NCBI GenBank assembly: GCA_964399075.1
Contig: CAYNPK010000001.1
Coordinates: forward strand, 268,400-332,399
Reading direction: 5' to 3'
Length of the DNA: 64,000 nt
DNA from: an uncultured Candidatus Saccharibacteria bacterium
GTDB taxonomy: Bacteria > Patescibacteriota > Minisyncoccia > Phycocordibacterales > JACOZG01
Under the pieces are notes generated by a model, which worked only from the letters and a program-made list of their open reading frames with translations, did no database searches and was not told the DNA's origin. Below, piece after piece: positions 3,926 to 58,042 of this stretch. Position 1 is the stretch's first letter, and every line of letters starts with the position of its first letter. A program made the translations under genes and the position numbers.

Positions 3926-4035
3926 TGTTCTGGCGGATACCTACTCTCCCCTTGCGAGTACCATCGGCACTATGGCGCTTAACTACTCTGTTCGGAATGG
4001 TAAGAGGTGTGACCACCACGTTGAACCACCAGAAC
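3926..4035 (-). rRNA. rrf: 5S rRNA
   Basis: Reverse complement reads TTCTGGTGG…CCATTCCGAACAGAGTAGTTAAGC…GCCGATGGTACTCGCAAGGGGAGAGTAGGTATCCGCCAG, which fits the 5S consensus. Confidence 0.8.
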
Positions 4036-4097
4036 ACAACACTCAACTAGTAATAAAAAAGCAATGCTGATAATTAATGATTTCCAGATTTCCCAAT

Positions 4098-7057
<2,960 letters not shown>

Positions 7058-7208
7058 CCATTGGGAAATCTAAAAACCATTTTTATCTTTCTTGCTTACT
7101 TTCTTGCTTGATGATTACTTTTACCTGCTCCGTCTCCAACTAAGTAAAAACCCTCTGAACTTGAGTTGTGACGAGCATTTAATTGTCAAAGAAGCTAGCC
7201 TGTTTCAG

Positions 7209-28107: not shown

Positions 28108-31100
28108 TTAAACAAAAGTAAACTCTTTAGCATTAACAGCAAGCTTGAGAACATCAGCATGTTTAAGCACCAAATCTCGCCGAGCAAGCGACACAGGCAT
28201 AATAGCTAACTCTCCGGGCTTAAGACCTGATTTCTTGCGCCAATCTTGCAATTTGCGAATCAAATCACGCAACTCCCCCTCTTCTTTAAGTTCCGGAGTA
28301 AGTTCAAGATCTAACTCCACCTCGCTTACTAATTCTGGATCAGAAGAGATCTCTTTAACATTTACCTCATCTTTGATTAAGTCTAACAATTGACTATTAT
28401 TCTTAATTTCTAGCGACATCTTTTTAATTTTAAGCCTGGCTAAAGGCTGACGGACTTTAATCCCCGCCTTAGCTCGCGCCTCCAAACCCAAGGAGACAAT
28501 CCGCCTGACCTCAATCATATCTTCAAGCAACCCTTGATCGACAAGATCAACTACTCTAGGCCAAGAATCCAAATGAACGCTTTCTTGATCACCCTCGAGT
28601 TGACGATAGATTTCTTCAGCAACAAAGGGAGTAAACGGCGCCAAAACTCTAGCTAAGATATTAAACACCTGCGCCAAAGTCGCCGAAGCGTTGACTCTTT
28701 CTTCTTTTGCCTCTGGCTTAAAGCGGTCACGAGAACGACGAACATACCAGACTGAAAGATCTTCAATAAAAATATTAATCACCCGCAAGGCCTGATCAAG
28801 TTCATATCTATCCATCGCTTCAGTAACTTCGCCAACTAACTGATTTAAGCGAGCGATAATCCAACGATCTAAGACATGACGGCTAATTATTTTTTTAGCT
28901 ACTGATTGTTCAACATCAGCATAAGTTTGATAAAACAACCAAACATTATCTAAACGATTAATTACCTTGCGGTAAATCTCACCCACTCCTAATTCAGAAA
29001 AGCAGGCATCTTCCGCCTTCAAGAGAGGTGAACTTAGTAAATAAAATCGCAAAGCATCTGCACCGTATTGATTAAGGATCAAGAGCGGGTCAGGAAAATT
29101 ACCTTTGGATTTAGACATCTTCTGACCATCAGAGGCCAAAACACTGCCGGTAGTAACCACATTTTTAAAAGGAATTTTGTTAAATAAAATAGTCGCCACT
29201 ACGTGCATGTAGTAAAACCAAGTCCGAGTTTGAGCAATATATTCTGAGACAAAATCAGCCGGCACGCGACGTCTAGTCTGTTCTTCCCGCTCGAAGGGAT
29301 AATGTTCGGCCGCAAAAGGCATGGAACCAGACTCAAACCAGCAGTCAACCACCTCCGGAATACGAGACATTAGGCCACCACAGTTGCAAGTTAATTTGAT
29401 TTTATCAATATACGGCCGATGAAAATCCAATTCATAATCATGATTGTGAGGCAGAGGTTTGTAAGAGAAATCTTTAACCTCGCCAGTTAACAAGAAATCG
29501 TCGTGAGTTTCTTTAAAATTAGAAGCTTCCGTCACACCCAAACCCAAGGCGCCGGCAAACAGCATGGTAATCGGAGTCTCGTGAGAAATCAATAAAATAT
29601 TTTTGCCTTGATAGCGACCTTCTAGATCATCAATCAAATTCATCATCCGACGCTTGACCGTCATTAGATCTTCGCCATTCGGACAGCCCTTGGTGAACTT
29701 ATCAATCGGGTTAGAAAAATGATGATAATACTCCGCTACCGGTCGACCGTTGAAGTCGCCGAAGTCAACCTCACGCAAACGCTTATCGTAAATTACTGAA
29801 GCAGTAGGCAGAGACAGTTCTCGAGCAATCAGCTCGGTAGTCTCTCTCGTGCGGACAAAGTCTGAAGAAATAATTAAATCAATCTTAGCCTTTTCCAACT
29901 TAGACAACACAGCCTTAATTTGTTCTCGACCCTTATCCGTCAAGTGGTGAGGATTATCGACACGACTACTGACAATATCTTGCACGTTATGATCGGCTTC
30001 GCCATGACGCATTGCCAAATATTTATTACCAGCGCTAATCGCCTCTTCTTGGAGCTCTACTAGGGAGCTAATCACTTTAACAAACTGACACTGATCACAC
30101 TTCCAAATCGGCAAGGGTGTGGCCCAAAATCGATTACGAGAAATATTCCAATCTGGCGCCCCTGCCATACTCTTGGCAAAGCGACCAAACTTAAGATGTT
30201 CTGGAATCCAATTAATTTCCTGATTCAATTCTCGTAAACGAGGCTTAAGATCCTGAATTTTAATAAACCAAGATGGCACAGCGTAATAATAAAGCGGGGT
30301 CTCGCAACGATAACAATGCGGATAAGAGTGAACAATTTTTTGCTTATCGAATAAAATATCACGCTTGGCTAAAAATTTAATAATCTCAATATCCGTCACT
30401 TGATGATTGTCCTTAGGCTTAACTAGTTGACCGGCAAAATCTTTAACTTCCAGCTGGAAACGCCCGGTATGATCAACATGGACAACAATAGGCAAATTTT
30501 CCTTCTTAGCCAGCGCCATGTCGTCCTCACCAAAAGCCGGAGCGATGTGGACAATGCCGGTACCATCAACAGTATTAACAAAATCAGCGCCACAAACTCG
30601 ACCTTCAGTTAGATAATAAGCAAAAGGCGGTTTATATTTTTTACCAATTAAATCTCGCCCTAAAAATTCTTCCTCAATAGAATAATCTGATTTAATAGAA
30701 GCCAGGAGACGATCTTTAGCCAAGATAAAATATTCTTGGCCAATTTTAACTTTCACATAAGAAATCTGCGGACCAACAGCAACCGCCGTATTGCCTGGCA
30801 AAGTCCAAGGCGTTGTTGTCCACACCAGAAGATAAGTACCCGGCTCGTCAAGCAATTCAAATTTAACAAAAACAGAGATATCAGAAATGTCTTTGTAACT
30901 ATTATCCATCGCGATTTCCGCATTAGCCAAGGGCGTCTCGCAACGAGGACAATAGGGCAAAACTCTAGTGCCTTCGTATAATAAACCCAACTTATTCATC
31001 TCGCTCAAAGCCCACCACACTGACTCGATATAAGTGTTATCCATCGTCTTATAAGAACCAGCGAAGTCAACCCAACGTCCCATGCGCTCTATCACCTTCT

Positions 31101-31548
31101 GCCAATCTGCGACATAAGTGAGAACTTTGTCTCTAGCAGTTTGATTAAATTTATCAATCCCCAATTCTTCAATCTGCTTTTTGCCAGAAATCTTTAATTC
31201 CTTTTCCACGATATTCTCTACTGGCAAACCATGACAATCCCAGCCCCAACGACGCGCCACCCTCTTCCCTCGCATTGTTTGATAGCGGGGAATCACGTCT
31301 TTAATCGCGCTCGCCAAGATGTGGCCATAATGTGGTGTACCGGTAGCAAAAGGCGGTCCGTCGTAGAAGACAAATTCCTCGTCACTGACATTTTTAGCCA
31401 ATGACTTTTCAAAAATTTGCTGTTCTTGCCAAAACTTAAGAATTCTCTCTTCTCGCTTGGCCACTTCTGATTTTTCCGGCAAATTATTCGCCATAATTAA
31501 GTCTATCCTAGCATTTTTTGGCCAGAAAAAAAGCCCGCCGGAATACAC
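28108..31548 (-). CDS. ileS: Isoleucyl-tRNA synthetase carrying an about 195-aa histidine-phosphatase (PGAM-like) domain insertion. Likely true start at the internal Met MANNLPEK (31494).
   Basis: HIGH region PHYGHILAS and KMSKSKGN. Editing-domain blocks. The insertion …LAMRHGEADHN…LLISHETPI… lies between the KCDQC and CNCGG zinc-knuckle halves (about 29461..30048). Confidence 0.9.
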   Translation of the reverse strand: MYSGGLFFWPKNARIDLIMANNLPEKSEVAKREERILKFWQEQQIFEKSLAKNVSDEEFVFYDGPPFATGTPHYGHILASAIKDVIPRYQTMRGKRVARRWGWDCHGLPVENIVEKELKISGKKQIEELGIDKFNQTARDKVLTYVADWQKVIERMGRWVDFAGSYKTMDNTYIESVWWALSEMNKLGLLYEGTRVLPYCPRCETPLANAEIAMDNSYKDISDISVFVKFELLDEPGTYLLVWTTTPWTLPGNTAVAVGPQISYVKVKIGQEYFILAKDRLLASIKSDYSIEEEFLGRDLIGKKYKPPFAYYLTEGRVCGADFVNTVDGTGIVHIAPAFGEDDMALAKKENLPIVVHVDHTGRFQLEVKDFAGQLVKPKDNHQVTDIEIIKFLAKRDILFDKQKIVHSYPHCYRCETPLYYYAVPSWFIKIQDLKPRLRELNQEINWIPEHLKFGRFAKSMAGAPDWNISRNRFWATPLPIWKCDQCQFVKVISSLVELQEEAISAGNKYLAMRHGEADHNVQDIVSSRVDNPHHLTDKGREQIKAVLSKLEKAKIDLIISSDFVRTRETTELIARELSLPTASVIYDKRLREVDFGDFNGRPVAEYYHHFSNPIDKFTKGCPNGEDLMTVKRRMMNLIDDLEGRYQGKNILLISHETPITMLFAGALGLGVTEASNFKETHDDFLLTGEVKDFSYKPLPHNHDYELDFHRPYIDKIKLTCNCGGLMSRIPEVVDCWFESGSMPFAAEHYPFEREEQTRRRVPADFVSEYIAQTRTWFYYMHVVATILFNKIPFKNVVTTGSVLASDGQKMSKSKGNFPDPLLILNQYGADALRFYLLSSPLLKAEDACFSELGVGEIYRKVINRLDNVWLFYQTYADVEQSVAKKIISRHVLDRWIIARLNQLVGEVTEAMDRYELDQALRVINIFIEDLSVWYVRRSRDRFKPEAKEERVNASATLAQVFNILARVLAPFTPFVAEEIYRQLEGDQESVHLDSWPRVVDLVDQGLLEDMIEVRRIVSLGLEARAKAGIKVRQPLARLKIKKMSLEIKNNSQLLDLIKDEVNVKEISSDPELVSEVELDLELTPELKEEGELRDLIRKLQDWRKKSGLKPGELAIMPVSLARRDLVLKHADVLKLAVNAKEFTFV

Positions 31549-32038: not shown

Positions 32039-32486
32039 CTACTTGATGCGACGGCCAGCGAACCACCAGTCGCCATTCCAGCCATTGTCGCAGCAGTTGA
32101 CGTACACGTCGCGCTCGTCGTTCCAGTGGTTGAAGGCGATGTAGCACCATTCACCGCTTTCGTCCTTCCAGTGAGTGAAGTTGGGATACTGGTTGGCAAA
32201 ATCCGGGTCGGCCTCGTTCACCGCCGCCAGATCGTCGGGAAAGGCGGGGGCGAGACCCTGCAGTTCGCACTCATTCTCCAGATCGGCATCGGTCACGTAG
32301 CGGAAGAGGGGGGAAGAAAATGACCTCTGACTCTTCTCCAATACCACGGGGCATTTTAGCCACTACTTCGGGCTCGATGTACTGAACTCGACGAGTGGCA
32401 TCGAGTACCCCCTGGGAAGTGAGAGTGCGGTTGACTGGGACTCCCGAAACAACAACTAGACCGTTTCGTAGTTCCTGGATAATCAC
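32039..32486 (-). pseudogene. DGR target gene 2, a truncated paralog of target 1 carrying VR2. Interrupted by a +1 frameshift at a C6 tract (32308..32313). Putative GTG start after an AAAGGAGAG RBS.
   Basis: Two overlapping ORFs (32271..32549 and 32039..32347) together reproduce the target-1 C-terminal two-thirds. A tract one C shorter would fuse them in frame. Confidence 0.6.
32045..32138 (-). repeat. DGR variable repeat VR2, remote from the cassette
   Basis: 94-bp match to TR with 7-8 mismatches, all at TR adenines on the coding strand. The 3' block GGTTCGCTGGCCGTCGCA is identical. Confidence 0.8.
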
Positions 32487-41770: not shown

Positions 41771-41881
41771 GTCTTCAATTAAACACTTTTTTTACTAAAA
41801 TTGCAACTTTTAAAGTTTTAAATAAAAAAGGGAAGAGCGATTGTCGTTAGACAACCGCTCTGGATTCAGCCGGAATCAGGA

Positions 41882-42097
41882 TCAGCGAAGTTTGGGTGCG
41901 ACGTCAGGATCGGGAGTTTTGATAGCAGTTGCATTCTCCCGTTTGATAGCATCGTACACCTCTTTTCTGTGGACAGAGATCTCGCCAGGAGCGGTAATCC
42001 CCAACCGCACTTTGTCACCACGGATGTCCACGATGGTGATCTCAATGTTATCACCAATCATGATCGTCTGATCCCGTTGCCGCGACAACACTAACAT
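41882..42097 (-). CDS. csrA: Carbon storage regulator CsrA (71 aa). The ORF-track upstream extension is rejected. AAGGAGG RBS 7 nt before ATG.
   Basis: [55 protein letters not shown] matches the CsrA fold signature (…MIGD…G.NAP….V.R.E). Confidence 0.8.
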
Positions 42098-42232
42098 GGC
42101 AAACCTCCTTATTTGCCAAACACCAAATGAAATGATCCAAATCGACGCCAATTTACTTATAACAAAAAACCAGCCGTTGCGCAAGTACACAACGGCTGGT
42201 GGGTAAGCAGGGGTAGGCCAACCCCTACTTAA

Positions 42233-42736
42233 TCAATGCAAAGGAGACAGTCTAGCGGAGGGACCCTCCACAAAGACTCGATAGGTTCCCAGAACAATGG
42301 TGTGGCCGTTCTGACCCCTGTCGATAACCTGGATTTCTCCACCATGAGGAACAGGGAAAACCTGGTCTCGAGGGGATTCACGATTGCGATCTCGGCCAGC
42401 GCCGAAAATCACAGACATGAGAGGATTCCCGTCGAGAACCAGTTCTGCGGAGCATGAGTGAACGCGACTCACCTGTAAGGTGGCTACGCCACGCGCCACC
42501 CTAAGCTCCCCTCCGGGTCCCAGCAAGACCCCATTACTACTTCCGTTTCCATTTTTTCCACGCGTCTTCTTCCGAGACATGAGAACTCCATTTCTTTTCT
42601 CTTTTTGAGTTTTCCCATTACCATTTACCACTAGGACACGATGTGAAAAAGTTTGTTCGATCGATATGGCCTCCTTGCTAAAAAGAACAACCCCCACGCC
42701 AACCTTATTTATAACTCTATCACTATCTGTTGTCAA
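42233..42736 (-). CDS. Hypothetical GC-rich ORF immediately upstream of csrA. Possible divergent FliW-like partner. Low confidence.
   Basis: Position mirrors the conserved fliW-csrA arrangement. C-terminal …GEIQVIDRGQNGHTIVL… weakly resembles the FliW …PIVIN..T..GKQVIL… Middle is low-complexity. Confidence 0.25.
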   Translation of the reverse strand: MTTDSDRVINKVGVGVVLFSKEAISIEQTFSHRVLVVNGNGKTQKEKRNGVLMSRKKTRGKNGNGSSNGVLLGPGGELRVARGVATLQVSRVHSCSAELVLDGNPLMSVIFGAGRDRNRESPRDQVFPVPHGGEIQVIDRGQNGHTIVLGTYRVFVEGPSARLSPLH

Positions 42737-43820
42737 TCAAAATGGGAAAGGCAATATTGAGAGCCTCCAGAACTTTAGTTTTGGCTTCCAGTAAAGGCAA
42801 CTTCATAGTAGCACCAACAGCAGCGCGATGACCACCGCCACCGACGAGAGTGACAAATTTAGTTAAGTCAAAAACCTGACCATCTCTAGTCCGAGCGCTT
42901 AATTTAACTTGACCAGCTTGCCACTCAAACAAAGTGATGCCAATGTCCCAACCTCGAACTGATTTTAAAATATTAGCAATAGACACACCCCGAGAGGCAT
43001 TCTCATCGAGGTGATGACTCGCTAATTCTTGATGAGACAAAGCCACGATAGCTACCCTATCGCCACGATAAGTTTGAATGGAACTAAACGCCAAACCCTG
43101 GAGATGGAGCGATTCAGGATTATTATTATTTTCTAACTTAAAAATCGTCTGATGATAATCAGGGACAATACTAGCCAAGCGCGAGGCTACCAGCAAAGTG
43201 TTGGGAGTGGTAGCCGGGTATTTGAATCCGCCAGTATCAGTATAAATTCCAAGAAATAAACAAGTGGCCATGTCAGGGGTAATTTCCGCTCCCCAAGCGA
43301 CAAATAATTCGTAGAGAATTTGAGCAGTCGCTGGATAATCAGCTAGAATTAAATTAATTTTAGCAAAAGGCGCATTCGTCAAATGATGATCAATCAAAAT
43401 AGTAGTCATCGTGTCGGGGAAATTTACTGGACCAAGATCAGTCACTCGTCTAATATCAGAAATATCTAACATGATAAACAAATCAAATTCACTTGGTTCA
43501 ATTTCCAAATAATTTTTAGCAACAATCACTTCCGCCCCGGGTAGAAACTCGGCGAAATCCGGCACTGGGGAATCACCCTTGATCACCATCACCTCCTTCC
43601 CCAACCCCCGCAAATAATGAAACATCGCCAGAGAGCTACCAACGCTATCAGGATCGGGGTGGGGGTGGAAGTGCAACAACACTCGCTTGGCGCGATTGAT
43701 AGCAGAGAAAATCTCTGTCGCTTTATCGGTAAATGAGTTGGGCATAATTAACTTAGAACAGTATACCACCACTTTGAGATCTGTGGATGATTTTCTGCTT
43801 AAGTTTCCAGCCATTACCAT
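42723..43820 (-). CDS. nrnA: DHH/DHHA1 phosphoesterase (NrnA-like). Likely start at the internal Met MPNSFTDK (about 43745), which removes the overlap with the RT gene.
   Basis: …TTILIDHHLT… (DHH) and …VGGGGHRAAVG… (DHHA1). Confidence 0.8.
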   Translation of the reverse strand: MVMAGNLSRKSSTDLKVVVYCSKLIMPNSFTDKATEIFSAINRAKRVLLHFHPHPDPDSVGSSLAMFHYLRGLGKEVMVIKGDSPVPDFAEFLPGAEVIVAKNYLEIEPSEFDLFIMLDISDIRRVTDLGPVNFPDTMTTILIDHHLTNAPFAKINLILADYPATAQILYELFVAWGAEITPDMATCLFLGIYTDTGGFKYPATTPNTLLVASRLASIVPDYHQTIFKLENNNNPESLHLQGLAFSSIQTYRGDRVAIVALSHQELASHHLDENASRGVSIANILKSVRGWDIGITLFEWQAGQVKLSARTRDGQVFDLTKFVTLVGGGGHRAAVGATMKLPLLEAKTKVLEALNIAFPILIDNR

Positions 43821-44784
43821 GTGTCAGCATCCCCAAATATGATTGCGCTACTTCCGGCCGGCTAGCGACCATTTCTAATCGTTTCAACATTCTTCTCTTT
43901 GTTACTGTTCGCAGAACACGATATCTAGGAAAATTTACCCAACCAAGAAAATCAACACCCGAAGCAATCGTTTTCACAAAGACTTTATTCGGATGTAATT
44001 CTAACTTCAATTTTTCTGCCAAAAAATCACTAATTTTAGGTGTCATTTCTAGTAAATAATCTTGATCACAATCGATAATTACAAAATCGTCAGCGTAACG
44101 AAGATAGTGTCTAGCTTTTAATTGATGCTTCATAAACTGATCTAGTTCACTCAGGTAAATATTAGCGAAAAGTTGCGAGGTGAGATTACCAAGGGGTAAA
44201 CCCTTCTTCGAGACACCAGAGTTAAAACTGCAAACTACTTTTTCAATCAAACAGAAGATATTTTTATCTAAGATTTCTCCTTTCAATAAACCAAGCAATA
44301 TTTCTTGATCAATACTAGCGAAAAATTTACGAATATCGCACTTCAATACCCACACTGCTTTAGTATTATTGCGACAAAGTTTGAAAGTTTTATCAGCAAA
44401 TTTTCTGACCGCTTTATGCGTACCTTTGCCATTTCGACAAGAATAAGAATCGTAAATAAATCGAGAGTGGAAATACGGATAGAGAATTCGATAGATAGCC
44501 CGGTGAACCACACGGTCGCGAACATTGGCTTTGTGAATCTGGCGAGGCTTGGGATCGGAAATACGGAAAGCGCGATAGGAAGAATGCTGATAGGTTTGTT
44601 GAGTTAACTCTTGGTTTAATGCTAGGATATTATCCGCCAGCCGAAGCGAGAATGTTTGCACCTCACGCTTGCCTCGTTTGCCACGCGCGAAATCTCGCCA
44701 AGCTAGAAATAAATTATCAACCGAAATAACATCGTTATACTTATGACTCAACCCTTTCCCTCTAAGACCCCCCCCCCAGCGCAA
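43753..44784 (-). CDS. DGR-type reverse transcriptase. TTG start. An alternative TTG at 44751 is preceded by an AGAGGG SD.
   Basis: RT motifs: N-terminal …DNLFLAWRDFARGKRGKREV…, …DSYSCRNGKGTHKA…, DGR-hallmark GLPLGNLTSQLFANIYL and LRYADDFVI (YxDD). Confidence 0.9.
   Translation of the reverse strand: MRWGGGLRGKGLSHKYNDVISVDNLFLAWRDFARGKRGKREVQTFSLRLADNILALNQELTQQTYQHSSYRAFRISDPKPRQIHKANVRDRVVHRAIYRILYPYFHSRFIYDSYSCRNGKGTHKAVRKFADKTFKLCRNNTKAVWVLKCDIRKFFASIDQEILLGLLKGEILDKNIFCLIEKVVCSFNSGVSKKGLPLGNLTSQLFANIYLSELDQFMKHQLKARHYLRYADDFVIIDCDQDYLLEMTPKISDFLAEKLKLELHPNKVFVKTIASGVDFLGWVNFPRYRVLRTVTKRRMLKRLEMVASRPEVAQSYLGMLTHGNGWKLKQKIIHRSQSGGILF
44768..44777 (-). repeat. Homopolymeric tract (C10 on plus, G10 on RT coding strand) at the RT 5' end
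   Basis: Seen directly. Encodes GGG in the long ORF, or lies just 5' of the SD if the downstream TTG start is used. Confidence 0.9.
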
Positions 44785-44786
44785 AT

Positions 44787-45173
44787 TTGAGCATCATCCA
44801 ACGACTTTTGCAAACTTATTGTTTGTGGCAGGAATTCGTTAAACATTTCCAAAAGACTAGCAAATATTCTCTGGGGATCAAAATTGATCAATTATTAGTG
44901 GAAGTTTTGGAATTAACCAGCGCGGCCAGCTTCTCGCCCAAAGAAGAAAAACTACCCTATGTGAAGCGCGCGATTATTAAATTAGACACTCTTAAATTTC
45001 TACTTCAAGTGGCCTGGGAAACAGGGTCATTGAACGAGAAGAGGTTCGCGTCCTTGTCACAACCACTAGCCGAGATTGGGAAGATGTTAGGTGGATGGCG
45101 CGGGCAACTCTTGAGACAGCTACCAATTACATCAAAACAAAACTCTCCCAGCATGAAGCCGAGAGAGAAATAA
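44787..45173 (+). CDS. Avd-like four-helix-bundle accessory protein (TIGR02436-like). Encoded on the opposite strand to the RT and targets.
   Basis: C-terminal half …LDTLKFLLQVAWETGSLNEKRFASLSQPLAEIGKMLGGW… fits the Avd consensus (…eigkmLngl…). N-terminal half is degenerate. TTG start. Confidence 0.5.
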   Translation: MSIIQRLLQTYCLWQEFVKHFQKTSKYSLGIKIDQLLVEVLELTSAASFSPKEEKLPYVKRAIIKLDTLKFLLQVAWETGSLNEKRFASLSQPLAEIGKMLGGWRGQLLRQLPITSKQNSPSMKPREK

Positions 45174-45178
45174 AGCAA

Positions 45179-45272
45179 GTTGCGACGGCCAGCGAACCAC
45201 CAGTTGTCATTCCAGTCATTGTCGTTGCAGTTGACGTTCACGTTGCGCTCGTCGTTCCAGTGGTTGAAGGCG
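45179..45272 (-). repeat. DGR template repeat (TR). Non-coding; the 78-aa ORF 45005..45241 is its spurious translation.
   Basis: The coding-strand sense is AAC-rich (…AAC GTG AAC GTC AAC TGC AAC GAC AAT GAC TGG AAT GAC AAC…). It is a 94-bp near-identical copy of VR1 and VR2. Confidence 0.85.
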
Positions 45273-45533
45273 TATTGTATAAAGTACCGCCCAAGTCATC
45301 ACCTCTTGTCGCCAAAACCGGGCGATTTGAGATTGCATATTATCCGGCATCTCCAATGCCTTAGCACTCTATACCAAGTAGCTTCATTTTTTATTGAAGT
45401 GTCTTCGCAAGCCCTCCACCAGCAATCGTAATTGCCAGAGTTCTCAACTTGCGGATACTGGATTCGGTGGCGAAAGTCGTAACTATTCGCATATTCACCG
45501 ACTACCGCAACCATCCTAGCACAAACGAAAAGG

Positions 45534-45576
45534 GCCCCGCATCTCATCTGTGGTTAGACAGAAAAATGCGGGGCCC
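45534..45576 (-). terminator. Rho-independent terminator downstream of target 1
   Basis: GGGCCCCGCAT-(loop)-ATGCGGGGCCC 11-bp stem, then TTTTCGTTT on the minus strand. Confidence 0.65.
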
Positions 45577-45629
45577 AAGGACTAAGGTCAAAGGATCTAA
45601 AAGATCCAATGGCCAAAGTCCACAAAGAA

Positions 45630-46247
45630 CTACTTGCGACGGCCAGCGAACCACCAGCTGTCATTCCAGTCATTGTCGTTGCAGTAGACGTTCACGTTGC
45701 GCTCGTCGTTCCAGTGGTTGAAGGCGATAAAACGCCACTTGCCATCCTCGCCCTTCCAGTGGGTACCGTTCGGTTTCTCCTTCGCGAAATTGGGATCGGC
45801 GGCATTGACGGCCGCCAAATCGTCTGGGAAAGCGGGTACGAGACCGCGGAGATCAAATTCCTTCTCGAGCTCATCGTCGCTCACGTAACGGCCGAGGTGG
45901 AAGAAGAAAACCCCCGCCTCTTCGCCGGTGCCCCTGGGCATGGAATCCACCACCTCGCTGTCGGTATACTGCCTTCTGCCGGTGGCGTCGAGTACCTCCT
46001 GGGGAGTGAGGCTACGGTTAATCGGGACGCGACGGATGATGAGGTTGCTCTGGACCTCCACCCGCCGACGAAACTCCTGGACCACTGCGTCAGCGAACTC
46101 GGGCTGTCCGAGCACTGTCTGCACCGCCACTGACTCGAACTCTTTGCCGTGCTTTTCGAGCCACACTCGGCAATTGTTCAGAAATTTGTCGATCTGACCG
46201 GCAGTCGTGGTTTTGGACTCTCTGGATGGGGTCATGGATTTCGCCAT
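45630..46247 (-). CDS. DGR target protein 1 (205 aa). No signal peptide or TM. The ORF-track start at 46307 is rejected as translated 5' UTR.
   Basis: AAAGGAGGA RBS 6 nt before ATGGCGAAATCC (MAKSMTPS…). C-terminus …FNHWNDERNVNVYCNDNDWNDSWWFAGRRK is encoded by VR1. Confidence 0.7.
   Translation of the reverse strand: MAKSMTPSRESKTTTAGQIDKFLNNCRVWLEKHGKEFESVAVQTVLGQPEFADAVVQEFRRRVEVQSNLIIRRVPINRSLTPQEVLDATGRRQYTDSEVVDSMPRGTGEEAGVFFFHLGRYVSDDELEKEFDLRGLVPAFPDDLAAVNAADPNFAKEKPNGTHWKGEDGKWRFIAFNHWNDERNVNVYCNDNDWNDSWWFAGRRK
45634..45726 (-). repeat. DGR variable repeat VR1, covering the last about 30 codons of target 1
   Basis: Differs from TR at only two positions, both TR adenines on the coding strand. 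Ends 1 nt before the stop codon. Confidence 0.85.
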
Positions 46248-46335
46248 GGCGTCATCCTCCTTTCGTTTTCTGGTCGTTTCTAGTTCCCGCGGGTTGGCAC
46301 TCGCCAATCCAAATCAAAGAACAGGTACTCTCCTT

Positions 46336-51948: not shown

Positions 51949-52516
51949 TATCCCAACTTAATAATTCCAAAACAAAATTTGCCGTCCACCGATGCGCCTC
52001 AGCCTCAATAATCGGCTCTGATCGCAACACTGTTTGAGTTAAACGTACCTTGTGAGGCAAACTCTCCAGTAAACTAAAGAAGTGTTGGAGATTAGCAAAA
52101 GATCCACCAGCTTGAGCCCGCAAAACTACTGTTTTCGGACCCTCTTCATTAATTGTTGCGGCCGTCATAGTGAAATTAAGATCCAATCCTGTTGCTAATT
52201 GTTCTAAACGTTCAATAAAAAATGGCAGGGTCTGATCGGTGACAAAGTAAGGTTTAAGCGTCGACTCCGCGACCTCAAGCTGTCCCATCAATGATCGCAA
52301 AGACAACAATTCATCTTTCTCAACCTTAATCAACGCCAACTTCTCTCGAGAAGAGATAATATTCGACTTCTCTCTCTCAAGACTCCAAACCAAGAAAGCC
52401 ACCGAAGCTAAACCGATAAGGCAGATAGCCACAACCCAAAGCCCCAGAGACGAGCTGGGGGAAATTTTTGATTGTGAATTTCTAAATGGGGTCATGGATA
52501 TTGATAATAATAACAA
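51935..52516 (-). CDS. PilO-like type IV pilus assembly protein
   Basis: N-terminal TM, coiled coil, C-terminal alpha/beta domain. Operon context pilM-pilN-pilO. Confidence 0.5.
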   Translation of the reverse strand: MLLLSISMTPFRNSQSKISPSSSLGLWVVAICLIGLASVAFLVWSLEREKSNIISSREKLALIKVEKDELLSLRSLMGQLEVAESTLKPYFVTDQTLPFFIERLEQLATGLDLNFTMTAATINEEGPKTVVLRAQAGGSFANLQHFFSLLESLPHKVRLTQTVLRSEPIIEAEAHRWTANFVLELLSWDNDNE

Positions 52517-53030
52517 AAGGGCTGGCTCTATCTTTAATCAAATTGGAAACTGGTGATTCAATCGTAGTGAAAACGTCATCGCCATCGAGAATAGCCACGA
52601 AGTCAAGTAGATTTTGACGCCAATCAGAAAAGCCTTCAAGTCTAAGATTGACCTCGTCGACCCCAACTCTCTCATAATTAAACTGGGTAATTTTTACCCC
52701 TTCCGGCAATTGATTAATAATTCTCTCTAACAAAAAAGACAGCTCCAGAGAGGGCGAAATCGCTTCCAAAATAATTCCACTTCGCTGTTTCAAATCAGTA
52801 ACTCTGGACTTAAGCTCTTCCGATTCGGCACTAGAAACTGCCGAGCGTTCGGCTTGTAAAGCGCGCTCCAGCGCCACAGCATCAGCTTTGATTAAAACAT
52901 AAGCCGTGGCTAGTAAAATTAAGATGATAATAACGAGAGAGAGAAATAAACCAACAGCAACTAACCGACGACGAGAGAGATAGTCGTGGAAAACCTGTTT
53001 GATTTTTTCTGGCGGTAATAAATTAATCAT
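52482..53030 (-). CDS. PilN-like type IV pilus assembly protein
   Basis: MINLLPPEKIKQ… (INLLP motif), then a TM and coiled coil. Confidence 0.6.
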   Translation of the reverse strand: MINLLPPEKIKQVFHDYLSRRRLVAVGLFLSLVIIILILLATAYVLIKADAVALERALQAERSAVSSAESEELKSRVTDLKQRSGIILEAISPSLELSFLLERIINQLPEGVKITQFNYERVGVDEVNLRLEGFSDWRQNLLDFVAILDGDDVFTTIESPVSNLIKDRASPFVIIINIHDPI

Positions 53031-54120
53031 GATAAAAATTCTTCAAAGCCAAACCAATAGCGGTAACATACTTTAGCGACTCATTAAGGTGGAGAGGTGG
53101 CACCAATTGCTTAGAGTCAAACATGTTGGTCCAAGCATTACCCAACTCCACTGGCAAATCTAAATTTCCACCAAGATATTCCAATAAACCTGGCAAAGTA
53201 GATTGTCCACCACAAATGATAATTCGATCTATTGGTTTACCCGATTGATAAACCAAACCACGATGACTATCCCAGAAATTATGAAAGCGAGCAATCTCAT
53301 CTCGCAAAACAGAAATAATCGGCGCTAAAATAGCTAAAGTCTTAGTGTTGCCGTTAGTAATTAAAATGCCATGCTTCATTTTATAATCCTCGGCTTCGGC
53401 AAAAGAAAAATTAAGATTTTTTTGCAAAGCGTTAGTAATAAGATCACCACCAACATTAGAAACCGTGGAAGTTAGTAACACCGACCTGCCAGAGACCACG
53501 AAAAAGCTAGTCCGAGTGCGTCCGATATCAGTAATCAAAAAGGTTTTATTAGTTCTCTCTATCTGGACCAGAGCACGAGCAATAGCGTGAGTCTCAATCT
53601 CACTACTAAGTGGCGTCAATCCAGCGTCCGTAATTACCTCAACGTAATCTTCCACTTCACGCCTGGGAAAAACAGAAACCGCCAATTGATATTGACGACT
53701 CTTATCTGTTGCTGATTCACTAATGATCTCGTAATCAAACAACACTTGTGCCACCGGTAGAGGCACATGTTCTTCTAATTGCAATTCAATACTCTGACGC
53801 AAATCATGCCGATTGAGCGCCGGCAAAGCAAGTTTGACGATGTAAGCCCGTTCTTCCGGCAAAGCAAAGTGGACGTAATTCAAATGATACTTCTCTCTAA
53901 GCTTAACCAGAGCCTGCTTAAGTGCCATCTTGTCTTTAATTTGCCCCAACTCCAGAACTCCCGGCGAGATCGCCTCTTCGCCAAAGGTAGCTAGTTGAAA
54001 ATATTGAGAACTAGGAACAACGTCAACAAATTTAACCGAGCGGTCAGAAATATCCAAACCGCTTGCGCGCATCTGCAAATATTTCGGTGGTGGAAAAAAT
54101 TTCATCAAGACACCTGACAT
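53023..54120 (-). CDS. pilM: Type IV pilus assembly protein PilM (actin-like ATPase fold)
   Basis: …GLDISDRSVKFV… and the actin-like ASKHA blocks. Confidence 0.8.
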   Translation of the reverse strand: MSGVLMKFFPPPKYLQMRASGLDISDRSVKFVDVVPSSQYFQLATFGEEAISPGVLELGQIKDKMALKQALVKLREKYHLNYVHFALPEERAYIVKLALPALNRHDLRQSIELQLEEHVPLPVAQVLFDYEIISESATDKSRQYQLAVSVFPRREVEDYVEVITDAGLTPLSSEIETHAIARALVQIERTNKTFLITDIGRTRTSFFVVSGRSVLLTSTVSNVGGDLITNALQKNLNFSFAEAEDYKMKHGILITNGNTKTLAILAPIISVLRDEIARFHNFWDSHRGLVYQSGKPIDRIIICGGQSTLPGLLEYLGGNLDLPVELGNAWTNMFDSKQLVPPLHLNESLKYVTAIGLALKNFYHD

Positions 54121-54169: not shown

Positions 54170-57100
54170 TTACAAATCACCTTCCAACTTATTCGTCCCC
54201 CGTCCTGAATCCAGAATTTTGCCAACTTGATTGCGAACCCCCACTAAATCCAAGATATCAATCACACCGTCACGATTGATATCATAGAAGAAGTTAGTCG
54301 AATCAAGTTTTTGATTAAAACTGTCTCGGACTTTAATCAAATCACTCTGATCAACTTTACCATCCTGATTAACATCACCCAAGAGGGCGCCGACCTGCCA
54401 AGTGGGCGATAATCCGCCATCTTCCGCCACTAAGAGATTGCCAGAAGGATCAGTTAGATTTTGGAGTCGAATAGTGACAATCTGACCATCAGGAATCTCT
54501 TTGAGTTTCAAAACTAGTTCACCCAAACCTTCGCGGACTCGATGATTCATGATTTCTATAGACTGAATCAAATCATTGCGCACCACGGAGGGGTAACCTA
54601 AAGACAAGCTAACCGTATCTTTAGAAACCTGATTGGGGGTTGGTGTAACTAATTCATTAAAGACGAAACTAATCTCTTGGGGTCCAAGTTGGCGAGGCTC
54701 TACTGTTAATTGCCTCATTGTTAAATCTATGGGGAAAGTGAAGGTTCTCCCATCAAGAGAAATGTGTTTGAGGAGAGATCGAGCAAATTTTTCTACTCTA
54801 GGTTGAATAGTATCCGGCTTACCAATGGTAATATTTACCACAGACGACTCGGCTTTGTTTCCAGCAGCGTCATAAGCCTTAGCTTGGAGAGAAAATCGTG
54901 AATTAGGGGCAGGTGGAGTGGAAGTGTCCCAAACAAATTTGTAAGGGAAAGTGTCAACAGAATCAACCAATTGACCATCAATATAAAGCTCTACCTTGGT
55001 AACCATCACATCATCAGTGGCCATAATTTCTACCACTGGACGATCTGAATAATTAAAGAGGTCACCATTTTTGGGATCCAAAATACTCACCTCTGGTGGT
55101 TCTTGATCATTTTCTTCGAGTTCGAGTAAGTAGATTTGAGGATAGTCATGGCGATAATCAGCCCAAACAAATTTGTTGCCATCAAGATTGGGATTCACGT
55201 GACCAGAAGACGGATAACGGTAAACAATATTTTCTATCCCAGTGGCTAAATTATACGAAAAAAGAGCAGATCCCCCCGAAACAGGCGCCCGCCACAAGAC
55301 ACGCCCAGAATCAATGAGGGGAAGAGATTGATCAGACGAAGTTGGAGATAAACGACGCTCTTCCTTAGAAATTAAATCATACAAATAAATTTGATAATAA
55401 TAATTCCGATCATCCCCCCAAACCACCTTATTACCACTAATATCGGGGCTATATTTACTGGCATTTGGAGGAGGTGGGGGCAATAATTCTTCAGCGCCAG
55501 TATTTAAATCATGTACATGGACCTTTTGATTTGATGACATGTATACCATTTTATTACCATCGCGACGAATAACCTGACTCCAACTCAAACCCGTTGGTGT
55601 TTCCAAAATTCGTTCAGTATTAGTGTTTAAATCATACAAGGCAAATTGATAATCATATCTGGGATAAGGAGAAGGTTGCGTCCAAATGACTAAATGATCT
55701 TTAATAGTGGGGAGCCAATAGCTACGTCCGGGTTCAGAAGAAGAAATAACCCGACTAGTGTTTGTACTCAAGTCATAAACACGAAGATCTGTAGAACTGT
55801 TATACGGTGATCCAACATAGTCCAACCACACTACTTTATCACCGTCAATAGAGGGATAAAATTGCTGCCTTACTGAGGCATCGGGAAATAAGCGACGCTC
55901 GGTTCCAGTTTTTAAATCATAAAGATAAATTTGTGCATTACCATGACGAGAGTCCGACCAAACCACCTTATCACCATCAACATCTGGCCAAGCTTGATTT
56001 GAAGAAGTTGGCGATAGTCGGCGAGCGCCTCCCCTATCTATCCACACATCATAAATCTGGAATTGGGAAATACGACCAGCAGTATCGCGAGCGGTAACTC
56101 TGATAGTGTAATAAGCAGATTCCAAATTAAGACCTTGTTTCTGGTTAATATCATTTAGATCTATTCTAGCCAAGAGACTGTTATTGGATAGAGGTTGAGT
56201 AGAGCCAGATACCGGCACATTAACCCATTCCAGAGTCTTGGGTGAATCAGAAGAGGTGCCCATTTGTCGACTAATCTCCACGGTATGACGAGAGAAATTG
56301 GAGCCGGTGATCTTGCCCTTGAGATTGACTATCGAGTCGGTCTGGATGGTGCGACTCTTGGGCTCGGTAATGATGGGTGCCAGGGGTCTAGTTCCCGCTT
56401 GTTTATGATCATCAGCTAGTTTGAGAGAATTAAAAATGTTAATCAAACCATAGCCAGTATCAATATCTTTACCGGGGGGACCAATATCTTCGGATCCCTG
56501 TCTCATCAACTGCCTGACTTCCTCATTGGTTAAATTAGGGTTATGAGACCAGATTAGGGCTGCCAAACCAGCGACATGAGGCGTGGCCATGGAGGTGCCA
56601 GTCATTATGCAATAATTAGCTATCTTCAAATTATAATTAGGGGGGCAATCAAAAGATATTGCGGATTTAAGAGAAAGAATTGATTCTCCAGGTGCAGTTA
56701 ATTCTATTTTATCAGCTCTCTGGTGAGGCTCGCCACGCCTGGGAAAATACATGTTAAAATCTATGGTATCAACACTTATCACTAAATCAAGAGCGCTTGG
56801 GTCATAATCTAGAATCGTGTAAGACGGTAGATTCGGAGCACTGGCAACGATAAGCATTCCCTTATTGTGTTGATATTTGATCGCATCTACTATTGCCCTA
56901 CTTCGCCCAATACCATAATAACTATTGTTAGAAATTTTAGCTCCCATATCAGCAGCATATTGGAGAGCTCTGACAATGGCGACAAGGGAGAAGGAACCCT
57001 CCGCGCCACTATGCACATTTAACGCCATGACCTTTCCTTGCCAACTAACGCCAACCACGCCAAGCTCATTGTTGCCAGTAGCGCCAATGATCCCTGCCAC

Positions 57101-58042
57101 ATGAGTACCGTGACCAATATGGTCTACGGGGTCATTATTATTATCACCAAAATTCCAGCCATAATAGTCATCAATGTAGCCGTTGCCGTCATCATCAATC
57201 CCGTTACCAGGGATCTCACCGGGATTGGTCCAAATATTATCTTTAATATCGGGATGGCGATAGTCAACCCCGCTGTCAATCACCGCTACAATGATATCTT
57301 CCGAGCCGGTGGTAAAGCCCCAGCCTTCTTCGGCGTCAATTCTTTTCAAGCCCCAGAGATCTTCAATGCGAGAATTTACATTACCAGAAGAAAGCCAGAA
57401 GGGGTCATTGGGCGTGGCGGAGGCGGTGAGCTCAGCTAGGTAATTGGGTTCAACGACTTCGATATTGGGATCAGCATGGTAATCAGCCAGAACTTGCGCG
57501 AAGTTAAGCACCGGTTGGCTAATCTTGTTATCAGTAGAAATTTTGGGTTGCAATCTCTCTGGCATGTCACTAGTCTGGAATTGAGAGGGAGTAGCTAAGG
57601 ACTTTAGGTCTTGGACTCCAGAGGGTAGAGATAGAGTAGTGCTGGGGCCGGGCAAGGTTAGGATGTAATAATCAAAGAGCGGGTCAGAGAGGTCAGAACT
57701 GGGCATGGGCACCGCTAAGCGTTCTAACTTACTGGCTTGATACTTAGCATTAAGTTGCCTTAAGGAATTGAGACTAGTATCGGCAGAGGTGGATTTAGTG
57801 CCAAGTTTACTCTTGGCTTCTTTGGTAAACTTGATAATGATTTGATTACTTAAGAATTGAGCTGGAGCCGGTTCTCCCTTAGTGGGAGTGGCGAGGGTGC
57901 CAAGTGAGGCTGGAGCTTGATGGCGATCAAAGAGGCTGAATAGTTGATCAAGTGCCGGTGGTTTAAACCAGATTAATAAAGTGATAAAGATAATAGCGAG
58001 AATGAGAAGAATCAGTAACAGAGTGCGGATACGATGAGACAT
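54170..58042 (-). CDS. Giant secreted subtilisin-like serine protease (S8) with beta-propeller repeats and C-terminal dockerin-like Ca-binding repeats
   Basis: Catalytic triad motifs VAVIDSGVDYRHPDI, HGTHVAGIIG and GTSMATPHVAG. The C-terminus reads DVNQDGKVDQSDL…DINRDGVIDILDL. Confidence 0.8.
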   Translation of the reverse strand: MSHRIRTLLLILLILAIIFITLLIWFKPPALDQLFSLFDRHQAPASLGTLATPTKGEPAPAQFLSNQIIIKFTKEAKSKLGTKSTSADTSLNSLRQLNAKYQASKLERLAVPMPSSDLSDPLFDYYILTLPGPSTTLSLPSGVQDLKSLATPSQFQTSDMPERLQPKISTDNKISQPVLNFAQVLADYHADPNIEVVEPNYLAELTASATPNDPFWLSSGNVNSRIEDLWGLKRIDAEEGWGFTTGSEDIIVAVIDSGVDYRHPDIKDNIWTNPGEIPGNGIDDDGNGYIDDYYGWNFGDNNNDPVDHIGHGTHVAGIIGATGNNELGVVGVSWQGKVMALNVHSGAEGSFSLVAIVRALQYAADMGAKISNNSYYGIGRSRAIVDAIKYQHNKGMLIVASAPNLPSYTILDYDPSALDLVISVDTIDFNMYFPRRGEPHQRADKIELTAPGESILSLKSAISFDCPPNYNLKIANYCIMTGTSMATPHVAGLAALIWSHNPNLTNEEVRQLMRQGSEDIGPPGKDIDTGYGLINIFNSLKLADDHKQAGTRPLAPIITEPKSRTIQTDSIVNLKGKITGSNFSRHTVEISRQMGTSSDSPKTLEWVNVPVSGSTQPLSNNSLLARIDLNDINQKQGLNLESAYYTIRVTARDTAGRISQFQIYDVWIDRGGARRLSPTSSNQAWPDVDGDKVVWSDSRHGNAQIYLYDLKTGTERRLFPDASVRQQFYPSIDGDKVVWLDYVGSPYNSSTDLRVYDLSTNTSRVISSSEPGRSYWLPTIKDHLVIWTQPSPYPRYDYQFALYDLNTNTERILETPTGLSWSQVIRRDGNKMVYMSSNQKVHVHDLNTGAEELLPPPPPNASKYSPDISGNKVVWGDDRNYYYQIYLYDLISKEERRLSPTSSDQSLPLIDSGRVLWRAPVSGGSALFSYNLATGIENIVYRYPSSGHVNPNLDGNKFVWADYRHDYPQIYLLELEENDQEPPEVSILDPKNGDLFNYSDRPVVEIMATDDVMVTKVELYIDGQLVDSVDTFPYKFVWDTSTPPAPNSRFSLQAKAYDAAGNKAESSVVNITIGKPDTIQPRVEKFARSLLKHISLDGRTFTFPIDLTMRQLTVEPRQLGPQEISFVFNELVTPTPNQVSKDTVSLSLGYPSVVRNDLIQSIEIMNHRVREGLGELVLKLKEIPDGQIVTIRLQNLTDPSGNLLVAEDGGLSPTWQVGALLGDVNQDGKVDQSDLIKVRDSFNQKLDSTNFFYDINRDGVIDILDLVGVRNQVGKILDSGRGTNKLEGDL

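What the first reader, a model, noticed from the sequence alone, without database searches (positions are those of the whole stretch)
41830..42740. csrA with a possible FliW-like upstream partner in a GC-rich islet of an apparently non-flagellated small genome
There is a clear 71-aa CsrA with a perfect AAGGAGG RBS. Directly upstream on the same strand is a 150-167-aa ORF.

The ORF's position mirrors the widespread fliW-csrA pair. Its C-terminal motif weakly resembles FliW.

The islet is about 50-58% GC against an about 44% background, which suggests horizontal acquisition. CsrA-type post-transcriptional control is unexpected in this kind of organism. No flagellar genes are visible in the window.
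Basis: partly seen in the sequence, partly recalled or inferred. Interest (0 to 1): 0.55.

Follow-up and report, generated by a model that had tools for sequence, protein, structure and literature searches.

The report
Borrowed csrA gene, no FliW partner
A tiny-genome, non-flagellated Patescibacteria bacterium carries a stand-alone copy of the RNA-binding regulator gene csrA that came from the flagellar gene cluster of a planctomycete-like donor, and the unknown gene upstream of it is not the usual partner FliW.

Summary
The sequence facts hold. A 71-aa CsrA lies at 41882-42097 on the minus strand, with AAGGAGG 6 nt before its ATG. A same-strand ORF lies upstream at 42233-42580 (115 aa from ATG, 167 aa from TTG at 42736). 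Both sit in a modest GC-rich patch: csrA 50.5%, ORF 54.9%, host genes 43.4%.

The FliW reading fails. Pfam, NCBIfam, hhalign against a FliW alignment, an unfiltered FliW HMM on all six frames, Smith-Waterman with shuffles, and fold searches all find nothing. The ORF has no homologue among about 15 billion proteins. A strong intrinsic terminator separates it from csrA.

The horizontal-transfer reading holds for csrA. The host is a Paceibacteria (CPR) chromosome. None of 80 related species has csrA within 10 kb of nusG. The closest CsrAs (53/55 core residues, 79-84% nt) are from Phycisphaerae/Planctomycetota. In all five loci examined there, csrA follows a 149-150-aa fliW, and in four of them flagellin-family genes flank it.

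The CsrA keeps its RNA-binding residues and the FliW-docking I51/N55. Its Shine-Dalgarno sequence sits in an AAGGAG hexaloop hairpin, so it is probably a self-repressing orphan regulator.

This is a new member of a known kind and of moderate interest.

The parts
41882..42097 (-). csrA coding sequence, 71 aa, of the FliW-type with an extended C-terminus
   Evidence: Pfam PF02599 at 8.5e-25 and NCBIfam equivalog at 90 bits. The best PDB match is 5dmb_D, the Geobacillus CsrA solved in complex with FliW. Residues L2, L4, R6, I40, V42, R44, V47, I51 and N55 are present. The core is 53/55 identical to Phycisphaerae P0005.
42097..42118 (-). Hairpin in the csrA leader, UGGCAAAU-AAGGAG-GUUUGCCA. The Shine-Dalgarno sequence (AAGGAGG, 42104-42110) sits in a hexaloop of ANGGAN form and the A of the AUG is in the stem. 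It is a candidate site for CsrA binding its own mRNA.
   Evidence: Found by the hairpin scan. It appears in both the RNA minimum-free-energy and centroid structures. The function is inferred.
42136..42138 (-). Second GGA in the csrA leader (UUUGGAUCA), about 29 nt upstream of the Shine-Dalgarno GGA
   Evidence: Read from the sequence. A role as a second CsrA site is inferred only.
42169..42200 (-). Intrinsic terminator between the upstream ORF and csrA, with a 14-pair stem followed by TTTTTTGTT
   Evidence: inverted repeat I7, 11-nt perfect arms.
41834..41861 (-). Intrinsic terminator just after the csrA stop, with a 12-pair stem followed by TCCCTTTTTT
42233..42580 (-). Upstream ORFan ('ORF X'), 115 aa from the ATG, pI 10.7. 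It has a basic Gly/Asn-rich N-terminal tail and a predicted all-beta core. The open frame continues upstream to a TTG at 42736 (167 aa), but those 52 codons have host-like composition.
   Evidence: It is not FliW. Whether it is really coding is uncertain.
42586..42589 (-). GGAG, a Shine-Dalgarno-like core 5 nt upstream of the ORF X ATG, in the context AAAUGGAGUUCUCAUG

Best explanation
The locus is an orphan csrA that was acquired horizontally.

Origin. The gene belongs to the CsrA clade of Phycisphaerae/Planctomycetota. In all five loci examined there, csrA directly follows fliW, and in four of them flagellin-family genes flank it. Here only csrA, and perhaps a remodelled piece of its leader, is recognisable. 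It sits in a Paceibacteria (CPR) chromosome between a DHH-family phosphoesterase gene and a Germane-domain gene that precedes secE-nusG-rplK. No FliW or flagellin is visible.

Organisation. csrA is a single-gene unit bracketed by two intrinsic terminators.

Likely mechanism (inferred). A CsrA dimer binds GGA motifs in mRNA leaders and blocks ribosome access. The clearest candidate target is its own mRNA, whose Shine-Dalgarno sequence sits in an AAGGAG hexaloop. That would give negative autoregulation. Host genes in this window carry Shine-Dalgarno cores only at the chance rate, so few other leaders offer a Shine-Dalgarno-overlapping GGA site of this kind.

The upstream ORF. It is an unrelated ORFan, also foreign in composition. 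It is either a hitch-hiking gene of unknown function or a chance open frame in GC-rich foreign DNA. It is not FliW.
For: - Identity of csrA.
- Functional residues are intact, including the FliW-docking I51/N55 defined in PMC7829508.
- The host is a Paceibacteria: NusG is 73-87% identical to Vogel-/Taylor-/Nomurabacteria and Paceibacterota MAGs, and the window holds housekeeping genes and PilM/PilN.
- Relatives lack the genes: 0 of 80 species have csrA or ORF X within +/-10 kb of nusG, and they carry other genes upstream of secE.
- Nearest CsrAs: 91% identity over 89% of the length. All four named hits are Planctomycetota. All five examined contexts are fliW-csrA, and four also hold flagellin-family genes.
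- DNA identity is 81-84% over about 165 nt, starts exactly at the ATG, and nothing else in the 12-kb donor locus matches the window.
- Composition: csrA synonymous-codon score 0.093 and ORF X 0.245, against a host minimum of 0.307 and mean of 0.66.
- Shine-Dalgarno cores occur in 4 of 44 genes, which equals the chance rate of 9.8%, and two of the four are csrA and ORF X.
- Terminators and the Shine-Dalgarno hairpin.
- Purifying selection: dN/dS 0.02-0.03 against the nearest donors. Five of six window-specific changes at donor-invariant sites are synonymous.
- The junctions are reproduced at 100% identity in assemblies of two separate sequencing runs.
- csrA without FliW is common on mobile DNA: 65 viral contigs carry it and PHROG 9500 matches.
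Against: - Only 64 kb of a contig of at least 353 kb is visible, so fliW, flagellin or a second csrA could lie elsewhere in the genome.
- Relatives were examined only around nusG, not genome-wide.
- Synonymous sites against the nearest donor are near saturation (pS 0.65-0.73). The transfer is therefore not very recent or the true donor is unsampled, and selection within the CPR lineage cannot be separated cleanly from selection in the donor lineage.
- No promoter was recognised between the upstream terminator and csrA.
- Folding energy of the 83-nt csrA leader stretch that contains the hairpin is not better than shuffles (z = -0.69), and any Shine-Dalgarno sequence contains GGA. The autoregulation step is therefore inference only.
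- No integrase, flanking repeats or attachment site mark an insertion.
Confidence: 0.72

Rival explanations
1. ORF X is a new protein partner or antagonist of CsrA. It would be a functional analogue of FliW or CesT, acquired with csrA or recruited later, and possibly repressed by CsrA through its AUGGAG Shine-Dalgarno sequence.
For: - It occupies the position and strand that fliW holds in all five donor-clade loci, with a similar size and gap.
- Like csrA, it is foreign in composition and has a Shine-Dalgarno core in a genome that otherwise lacks them.
- Its leader contains an A-N-GGA motif over the Shine-Dalgarno core.
- AlphaFold gives a seven-strand beta fold with core pLDDT of 60-72 from a single sequence.
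Against: - It has no homologue anywhere, so there is no co-occurrence evidence.
- A strong terminator separates it from csrA.
- None of 65 viral csrA loci and none of the donor loci has anything like it.
- It is very basic (pI 10.7), whereas PMC7829508 describes the FliW surface near the RNA-binding interface as negatively charged.
- The ORF length is not significant for this GC content.
Confidence: 0.1
2. ORF X is a descendant of the donor's fliW that has diverged beyond recognition.
For: The position, strand and approximate size match fliW in the donor clade. Synonymous sites in csrA are near saturation, so a fliW under relaxed constraint could have lost all detectable similarity.
Against: - hhalign probability is 0.27%.
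- An unfiltered FliW HMM scores at most 0.2 bits in any of the six frames.
- The Smith-Waterman score is below the shuffle mean.
- blastn and tblastn find nothing.
- The model's best fold matches are FN3/Ig-like beta-sandwiches and no FliW appears in the top hits, though the model is of low confidence.
- FliW is 69-100% conserved across the donor clade, so a functional copy would be detected.
- Neutral decay would not keep a frame open.
Confidence: 0.05
3. ORF X is not a gene. It is a chance open frame in a GC-rich remnant of foreign DNA, and the terminator at 42200-42169 simply ends the transcript of the DHH gene.
For: - No homologue exists in about 15 billion proteins, in 1.84 billion representatives or in the metagenome scan.
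- An open stretch of at least 115 codons appears in 14.7% of dinucleotide shuffles of the 420-nt segment, and one of at least 128 codons in 7.7%.
- The AlphaFold model is weak, with mean pLDDT 58.
Against: - GGAG lies 5 nt before the ATG.
- The GC-by-codon-position order, GC1 > GC3 > GC2, is the same as in host genes.
- The frame stays open for 52 further AT-rich codons upstream.
- The predicted beta-sandwich core has pLDDT of 60-72.
- Gene callers in the public collection call it.
Confidence: 0.3
4. The islet is an assembly or binning artefact, a planctomycete fragment joined into a CPR contig.
For: The composition is foreign and the nearest relatives are planctomycete.
Against: - Identical junctions appear in contigs assembled from two separate runs, SRR11845628 and SRR11845629, and in an NCBI contig of 352,935 bp.
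- csrA is only 79-84% identical in DNA to any planctomycete copy, and its GC3 is partly shifted toward the host value.
- Both flanks are host-like within a few hundred bases.
Confidence: 0.02

Closest known systems
FliW-CsrA-flagellin partner-switch module of flagellated bacteria (Bacillus subtilis, Campylobacter jejuni, Geobacillus thermodenitrificans PDB 5DMB; here the Phycisphaerae loci L083-L087 and L153-L155)
   Same: The CsrA is of this type. It has an extended C-terminus and I51/N55, its best solved relative is 5dmb_D, and its core is 53/55 identical to Phycisphaerae CsrAs that follow fliW. An ORF of similar size sits upstream on the same strand.
   Different: There is no FliW, since the upstream ORF fails every FliW test. 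There is no flagellin or any other flagellar gene in the window. A terminator separates the upstream ORF from csrA. The C-terminal tail is 12 aa shorter than in the nearest relatives. The host is a non-flagellated CPR lineage.
Orphan csrA/rsmA copies carried by phages, plasmids and integrative elements (PHROG 9500 'CsrA-like regulator'; 65 IMG/VR contigs found here)
   Same: It is a stand-alone csrA with no FliW nearby, acquired horizontally, that could rewire host post-transcriptional control.
   Different: No phage, plasmid or integrase genes flank it here. It lies among chromosomal housekeeping genes. The viral copies are more distant (44-80% aa identity) than the planctomycete chromosomal ones.
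Escherichia coli CsrA with autoregulation and CsrB/CsrC sponge RNAs
   Same: The fold family and RNA-binding residues are the same. A GGA-containing leader element overlaps the gene's own Shine-Dalgarno sequence, which is the arrangement that lets E. coli CsrA repress its own translation (from my own knowledge: Yakhnin et al. 2011).
   Different: No sponge RNA was detected: there is no Rfam hit and no GGA enrichment next to csrA. The C-terminus is of the FliW-type. The host shows almost no Shine-Dalgarno usage.

Membership tests
CsrA/RsmA (PF02599) | Profile match above the curated threshold over the whole domain | tested here: met
   Pfam 86.9 bits against a cut-off of 27, covering profile positions 1-52 of 53. 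NCBIfam NF002469 scores 90 bits against 73, and TIGR00202 scores 83.5 against 70.1.
CsrA/RsmA (PF02599) | RNA-binding residues in strands beta1 and beta5 (L2, L4, R6, V/I40, V42, R44, I/V47) | tested here: met
   L2, L4, R6, I40, V42, R44 and V47 are all present. L2, L4, R6 and R44 are invariant across the 12-sequence alignment A2. The list of key residues comes from established knowledge (Mercante 2006, as cited in PMC7829508).
CsrA/RsmA (PF02599) | Binding of GGA-containing RNA as a homodimer | not testable with these tools
   This needs a gel-shift assay or a structure.
FliW-regulated CsrA subclass | C-terminal extension beyond the roughly 61-aa E. coli type, with V/I51 and N55 conserved | tested here: met
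   The protein is 71 aa and has I51 and N55. The criteria come from PMC7829508. The best PDB hit is 5dmb_D.
FliW-regulated CsrA subclass | A cognate fliW gene in the genome, usually directly upstream | tested here: not met
   No FliW signal appears in any frame of 41800-42800 or anywhere in the 64-kb window. The rest of the genome was not available.
FliW (PF02623), tested on the upstream ORF | Sequence or profile similarity to FliW | tested here: not met
   No Pfam or NCBIfam hit at E <= 1 and E <= 10 respectively. hhalign against a 25-sequence FliW alignment gives probability 0.27%. hmmsearch --max scores at most 0.2 bits. The Smith-Waterman score is 26 against a shuffle mean of 28.1.
FliW (PF02623), tested on the upstream ORF | The FliW fold | tested here: inconclusive
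FliW (PF02623), tested on the upstream ORF | Position directly upstream of csrA on the same strand | tested here: met
   The position and strand match the donor loci. However, a 14-bp-stem terminator lies between the ORF and csrA, so co-transcription is doubtful.
CsrB/RsmZ-type sponge RNA, considered for the GC-rich segment | Many GGA motifs in hairpin loops, and a match to a known RNA family | tested here: not met
   There are 14 GGA motifs against 11.2 expected (P = 0.2). No Rfam match above chance was found. Folding is no better than shuffles.
Horizontally acquired islet | Foreign composition, absence from relatives at the same place, and nearest homologues in a distant phylum | tested here: met
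   composition; 0 of 80 relatives; Planctomycetota as nearest homologues.
Horizontally acquired islet | Mobility hallmarks such as an integrase, flanking direct repeats, or insertion next to a tRNA gene | tested here: not met
   Only short repeats at the chance level are present. No integrase or transposase is nearby. The nearest tRNA gene is 5 kb away.

The most novel reading that the evidence does not exclude
A CPR epibiont has captured the flagellar translational repressor of a planctomycete, possibly its host lineage, and re-used it without FliW or flagellin. In a cell whose own genes do not use Shine-Dalgarno sequences, CsrA would act only on a tiny set of GGA/Shine-Dalgarno-bearing foreign leaders. 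The neighbouring ORFan would be either its new protein antagonist or its regulated target, making a two-gene imported regulatory module of a new kind.
Probability: 0.1. Interest if true: 0.7.

Novelty: new member of a known kind. Interest (0 to 1): 0.36.

Why it matters
- It is a clean case of a flagellar-locus regulator being uncoupled from its partner FliW and its target flagellin, and kept intact in a minimal, non-motile symbiont-type genome.
- The donor clade (Phycisphaerae) gives a lead on which organisms this CPR lineage has exchanged DNA with, and perhaps lives on.
- Host genes in this window lack Shine-Dalgarno sequences. It is therefore an open question what a repressor that acts by occluding Shine-Dalgarno sequences can regulate here.
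- For annotation, it warns against naming a gene fliW from its position next to csrA alone.

Tried and rejected
- Any homologue of the ORF. Only the ORF itself was found in 5.8 billion clusters. The one other hit among 1.84 billion representatives is a junk tandem-repeat protein. Phages, plasmids, the PDB and the metagenome scan gave nothing.
- The ORF region as a DGR template or variable repeat. Rejected, because the TR and VR copies lie at 45180-45272, 45634-45726 and 32047-32138.
- The ORF region as a CsrA sponge RNA. Rejected.
- A larger transfer that included the nearby Cob_adeno_trans gene, which also lies near csrA in the donor. Rejected, because the two proteins are only 40% identical and the window gene has host-like GC.
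- Polymorphism-based dN/dS on the ORF. Not possible, because the two other contigs are 100% identical to the window.
- The state of the locus before insertion in a close relative. Not found. Relatives differ upstream of secE, and the only metagenome hit to the Germane-domain gene is not syntenic.
- A search of the afdb50 structure library. The library was unavailable.
- Taxa behind the published csrA expression in ultra-small prokaryotes. Not given in the supplements that are held.
Full report
**1. What is there**

On the minus strand, 41882-42097 encodes a 71-aa protein, [71 protein letters not shown]. It is an unambiguous CsrA. Pfam PF02599 matches at 8.5e-25. The NCBIfam equivalogs score 90 and 83.5 bits, above their cut-offs. 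AAGGAGG lies at 42104-42110, 6 nt before the ATG.

Upstream on the same strand is an open frame at 42233-42736. It is 167 aa from a TTG that overlaps the end of the DHH-family gene. It is 115 aa from the ATG at 42580, which is the start used by public gene calls.

Host genes average 0.434 +/- 0.036, csrA is 0.505, the 115-codon ORF is 0.549, and 200-nt windows peak at 0.54-0.57. The patch is unusual but not unique. The ORF is in the top 1.3% of 348-nt windows, alongside rRNA and the two DGR target genes.

**2. Transcript architecture**

csrA is bracketed by two intrinsic terminators.
- The upstream one, at 42200-42169, has a 14-pair stem followed by TTTTTTGTT and lies between the ORF stop and csrA.
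- The downstream one, at 41861-41834, lies just after the csrA stop.

csrA therefore looks like a single-gene unit and is not coupled to the ORF. No sigma-70-like promoter was recognised in the 70 nt before csrA, so its transcription start is unknown.

The Shine-Dalgarno sequence lies in the hairpin UGGCAAAU-AAGGAG-GUUUGCCA, with the A of the AUG in the stem. This hairpin is present in both the minimum-free-energy and centroid structures. A second GGA (UUUGGAUCA) lies about 29 nt upstream.

**3. The host**

NusG, 1 kb away, is 73-87% identical to NusG of Vogelbacteria, Taylorbacteria, Nomurabacteria and Paceibacterota MAGs. The window carries:
- 23S and 5S rRNA and four tRNA genes;
- aminoacyl-tRNA synthetases, RecA, FtsK, FtsW and PilM/PilN;
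- a DGR.

It has no flagellar genes by Pfam or by tblastn with six planctomycete flagellar proteins. It is a CPR chromosome, not a mobile element.

**4. Is the upstream ORF FliW? No.**

- Pfam at E <= 1 and NCBIfam at E <= 10 give no FliW hit.
- hhalign against an alignment of 25 Phycisphaerae FliWs gives probability 0.27%.
- A FliW HMM run with all filters off against every stop-free fragment of all six frames of 41800-42800 scores at most 0.2 bits.
- The Smith-Waterman score is 26, below the shuffle mean of 28.1.
- tblastn and blastn against the donor fliW find nothing.

The ORF has no homologue at all.
- It finds only itself in 5.8 billion clusters.
- Among 1.84 billion representatives it finds only itself and a junk tandem-repeat protein.
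- Phages, plasmids, PHROGs, PADLOC, the PDB and JGI metagenome contigs give nothing.

Whether it is a real gene is open.
- For: a GGAG 5 nt before the ATG; the host-like GC-by-codon-position order, GC1 > GC3 > GC2; and a foldable-looking beta core.
- Against: an open stretch this long arises in 8-15% of dinucleotide shuffles of the GC-rich segment.

**5. Where csrA came from**

The best non-self CsrA hits are 91% identical over 89% of the length. In the 55-residue core, 53 residues are identical. All hits that carry an organism name are Phycisphaerae, Planctomycetota or Tepidisphaeraceae.

I examined the genomic context of five of them (P0005, P0006, P0021, P0083, P0033).
- In every case csrA follows a 149-150-aa fliW, with a gap of about 160-245 nt.
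- In four cases flagellin-family genes flank it, and in three of those flgK also lies upstream.

DNA identity to the window is 81-84% over about 165 nt. It begins exactly at the ATG. Nothing else in the 12-kb donor locus matches the window. The donor leader is strongly conserved and also presents AAGGAAGGAG between GGC...GCC arms. The window leader has the same layout in AT-richer form, so a vestige of the leader may have come with the gene.

Conversely, none of 80 related Paceibacteria species has csrA or the ORF within +/-10 kb of nusG. Where the neighbourhood can be read, relatives carry other genes upstream of secE: SIMPL, FKBP, MurB, FolD, DoxX and membrane proteins.

csrA and the ORF are both outliers in composition. 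Their synonymous-codon host/donor scores are 0.093 and 0.245, below all 50 host genes (minimum 0.307, mean 0.66). Only 4 of 44 ATG-start genes have a four-base Shine-Dalgarno core at -20 to -4, which equals the random rate of 9.8%. Two of the four are csrA and the ORF.

The 52 codons between the TTG and the ATG of the ORF are host-like (GC 0.385). The foreign segment therefore runs roughly from 41880 to 42590.

The junctions are reproduced at 100% identity in contigs from two separate sequencing runs and in an NCBI contig of 353 kb. A chimera is therefore unlikely.

Direction of transfer follows from numbers. The planctomycete clade is large and sits in a conserved fliW-linked context, whereas the CPR gene is a cluster of one.

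**6. How old, and is it maintained?**

Synonymous sites against the nearest donors are close to saturation (pS 0.65-0.73). The window gene falls within the divergence range of the planctomycete genes among themselves (nt identity 0.79-0.81, against 0.74-0.83). The transfer is therefore not very recent, or the true donor is unsampled.

dN/dS is 0.02-0.03. Five of the six window-specific changes at donor-invariant sites are synonymous. Together with intact RNA-binding residues (L2, L4, R6, I40, V42, R44, V47), this argues that the gene is kept functional. The share of that constraint acting inside the CPR lineage cannot be isolated.

The FliW-docking residues I51 and N55 (PMC7829508) are retained. 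The best solved relative is the Geobacillus CsrA crystallised with FliW, 5dmb_D. The C-terminal tail is still alignable (TPDPDV against TPDDI) but is 12 aa shorter.

**7. Most likely mechanism**

Shown: the gene is an intact FliW-type CsrA, a single-gene unit, with its Shine-Dalgarno sequence in an ANGGAN-type hexaloop.

Inferred from established knowledge: CsrA binds single-stranded GGA motifs around Shine-Dalgarno sequences (summarised in PMC6546359), and E. coli CsrA represses its own translation (my own knowledge). On that basis the protein probably represses its own translation. It may also repress the few other leaders with GGA/Shine-Dalgarno elements, possibly including the ORF's AUGGAG.

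No antagonist is evident.
- There is no FliW.
- There is no sponge RNA. No Rfam hit was found, and GGA is not enriched (14 against 11.2 expected, P = 0.2).

Stand-alone csrA is common on mobile DNA. Sixty-five IMG/VR contigs carry csrA with no FliW within 4 kb, and PHROG 9500 matches. This locus therefore fits a known pattern.

**8. Comparison with what is known, and verdict**

This is a new member of a known kind: an orphan, horizontally acquired csrA. Its unusual recipient is a CPR bacterium whose genes do not use Shine-Dalgarno sequences, and its donor context is clearly traceable to the planctomycete fliW-csrA locus, which in most examined copies sits among flagellin genes.

The literature held here barely touches CsrA in CPR. 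One paper lists csrA among highly expressed genes of ultra-small groundwater prokaryotes (PMC9938205).

Its FliW idea is not.

Limits of this work:
- Only 64 kb of the genome was visible.
- Relatives were checked only near nusG.
- The ORF's coding status and every regulatory step are untested.

Noticed in passing
window 43753-46307 and 32039-32347: A DGR with two targets. The RT is at 43753-44784 (-), Avd at 44787-45173 (+) and the TR at 45180-45272. VR1 is at 45634-45726, at the 3' end of ORF 45630-46307 (-), with 2 mismatches. A second VR lies 13 kb away at 32047-32138 in ORF 32039-32347 (-), with 7 mismatches. Every mismatch falls at a TR adenine on the coding strand. These targets account for the other GC-rich patches in the window.
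   Followed up: partly
window 28108-31548 (-): The isoleucyl-tRNA synthetase-like gene (1146 aa) carries a histidine-phosphatase domain (His_Phos_1, residues 513-679) inserted between the halves of its catalytic domain.
   Followed up: no
whole window (44 ATG-start genes): Host genes have essentially no Shine-Dalgarno sequences. Only 4 of 44 have a GGAG/GAGG/AGGA core at -20 to -4, equal to the random rate of 9.8%. AAGGAGG is not enriched in the window (13 occurrences against 9.6 expected). No 16S rRNA gene is in the window, so the anti-Shine-Dalgarno sequence could not be checked.
   Followed up: partly
window 3928-7065 (-): 23S and 5S rRNA genes are present without an adjacent 16S rRNA gene. 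The next gene upstream of the 23S is protein-coding.
   Followed up: no
protein P0004 (metagenome, contig 1824 bp): A 118-aa protein made of two CsrA domains in tandem on one chain, in effect a covalent CsrA dimer. It turned up among the CsrA hits.
   Followed up: no
L083-L087 and L153-L155, the 50 nt before csrA: The csrA leader of the Phycisphaerae/Planctomycetota clade is strongly conserved (GCAUCGGCAUGGCCAAGGAAGGAGCCGAGGAUG) and carries several GGA motifs. This suggests autoregulation in the donors as well.
   Followed up: no
L088-L152 (IMG/VR viral contigs): Sixty-five viral contigs encode CsrA (44-80% aa identity to the window protein), and none has a FliW within 4 kb. One contig carries two copies (L127 and L128).
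   Followed up: partly
window 54170-58042 (-): A 1290-aa subtilase with bacterial Ig-like domains and a C-terminal dockerin domain. It lies next to PilM/PilN-like pilus assembly genes at 52482-54120.
   Followed up: no
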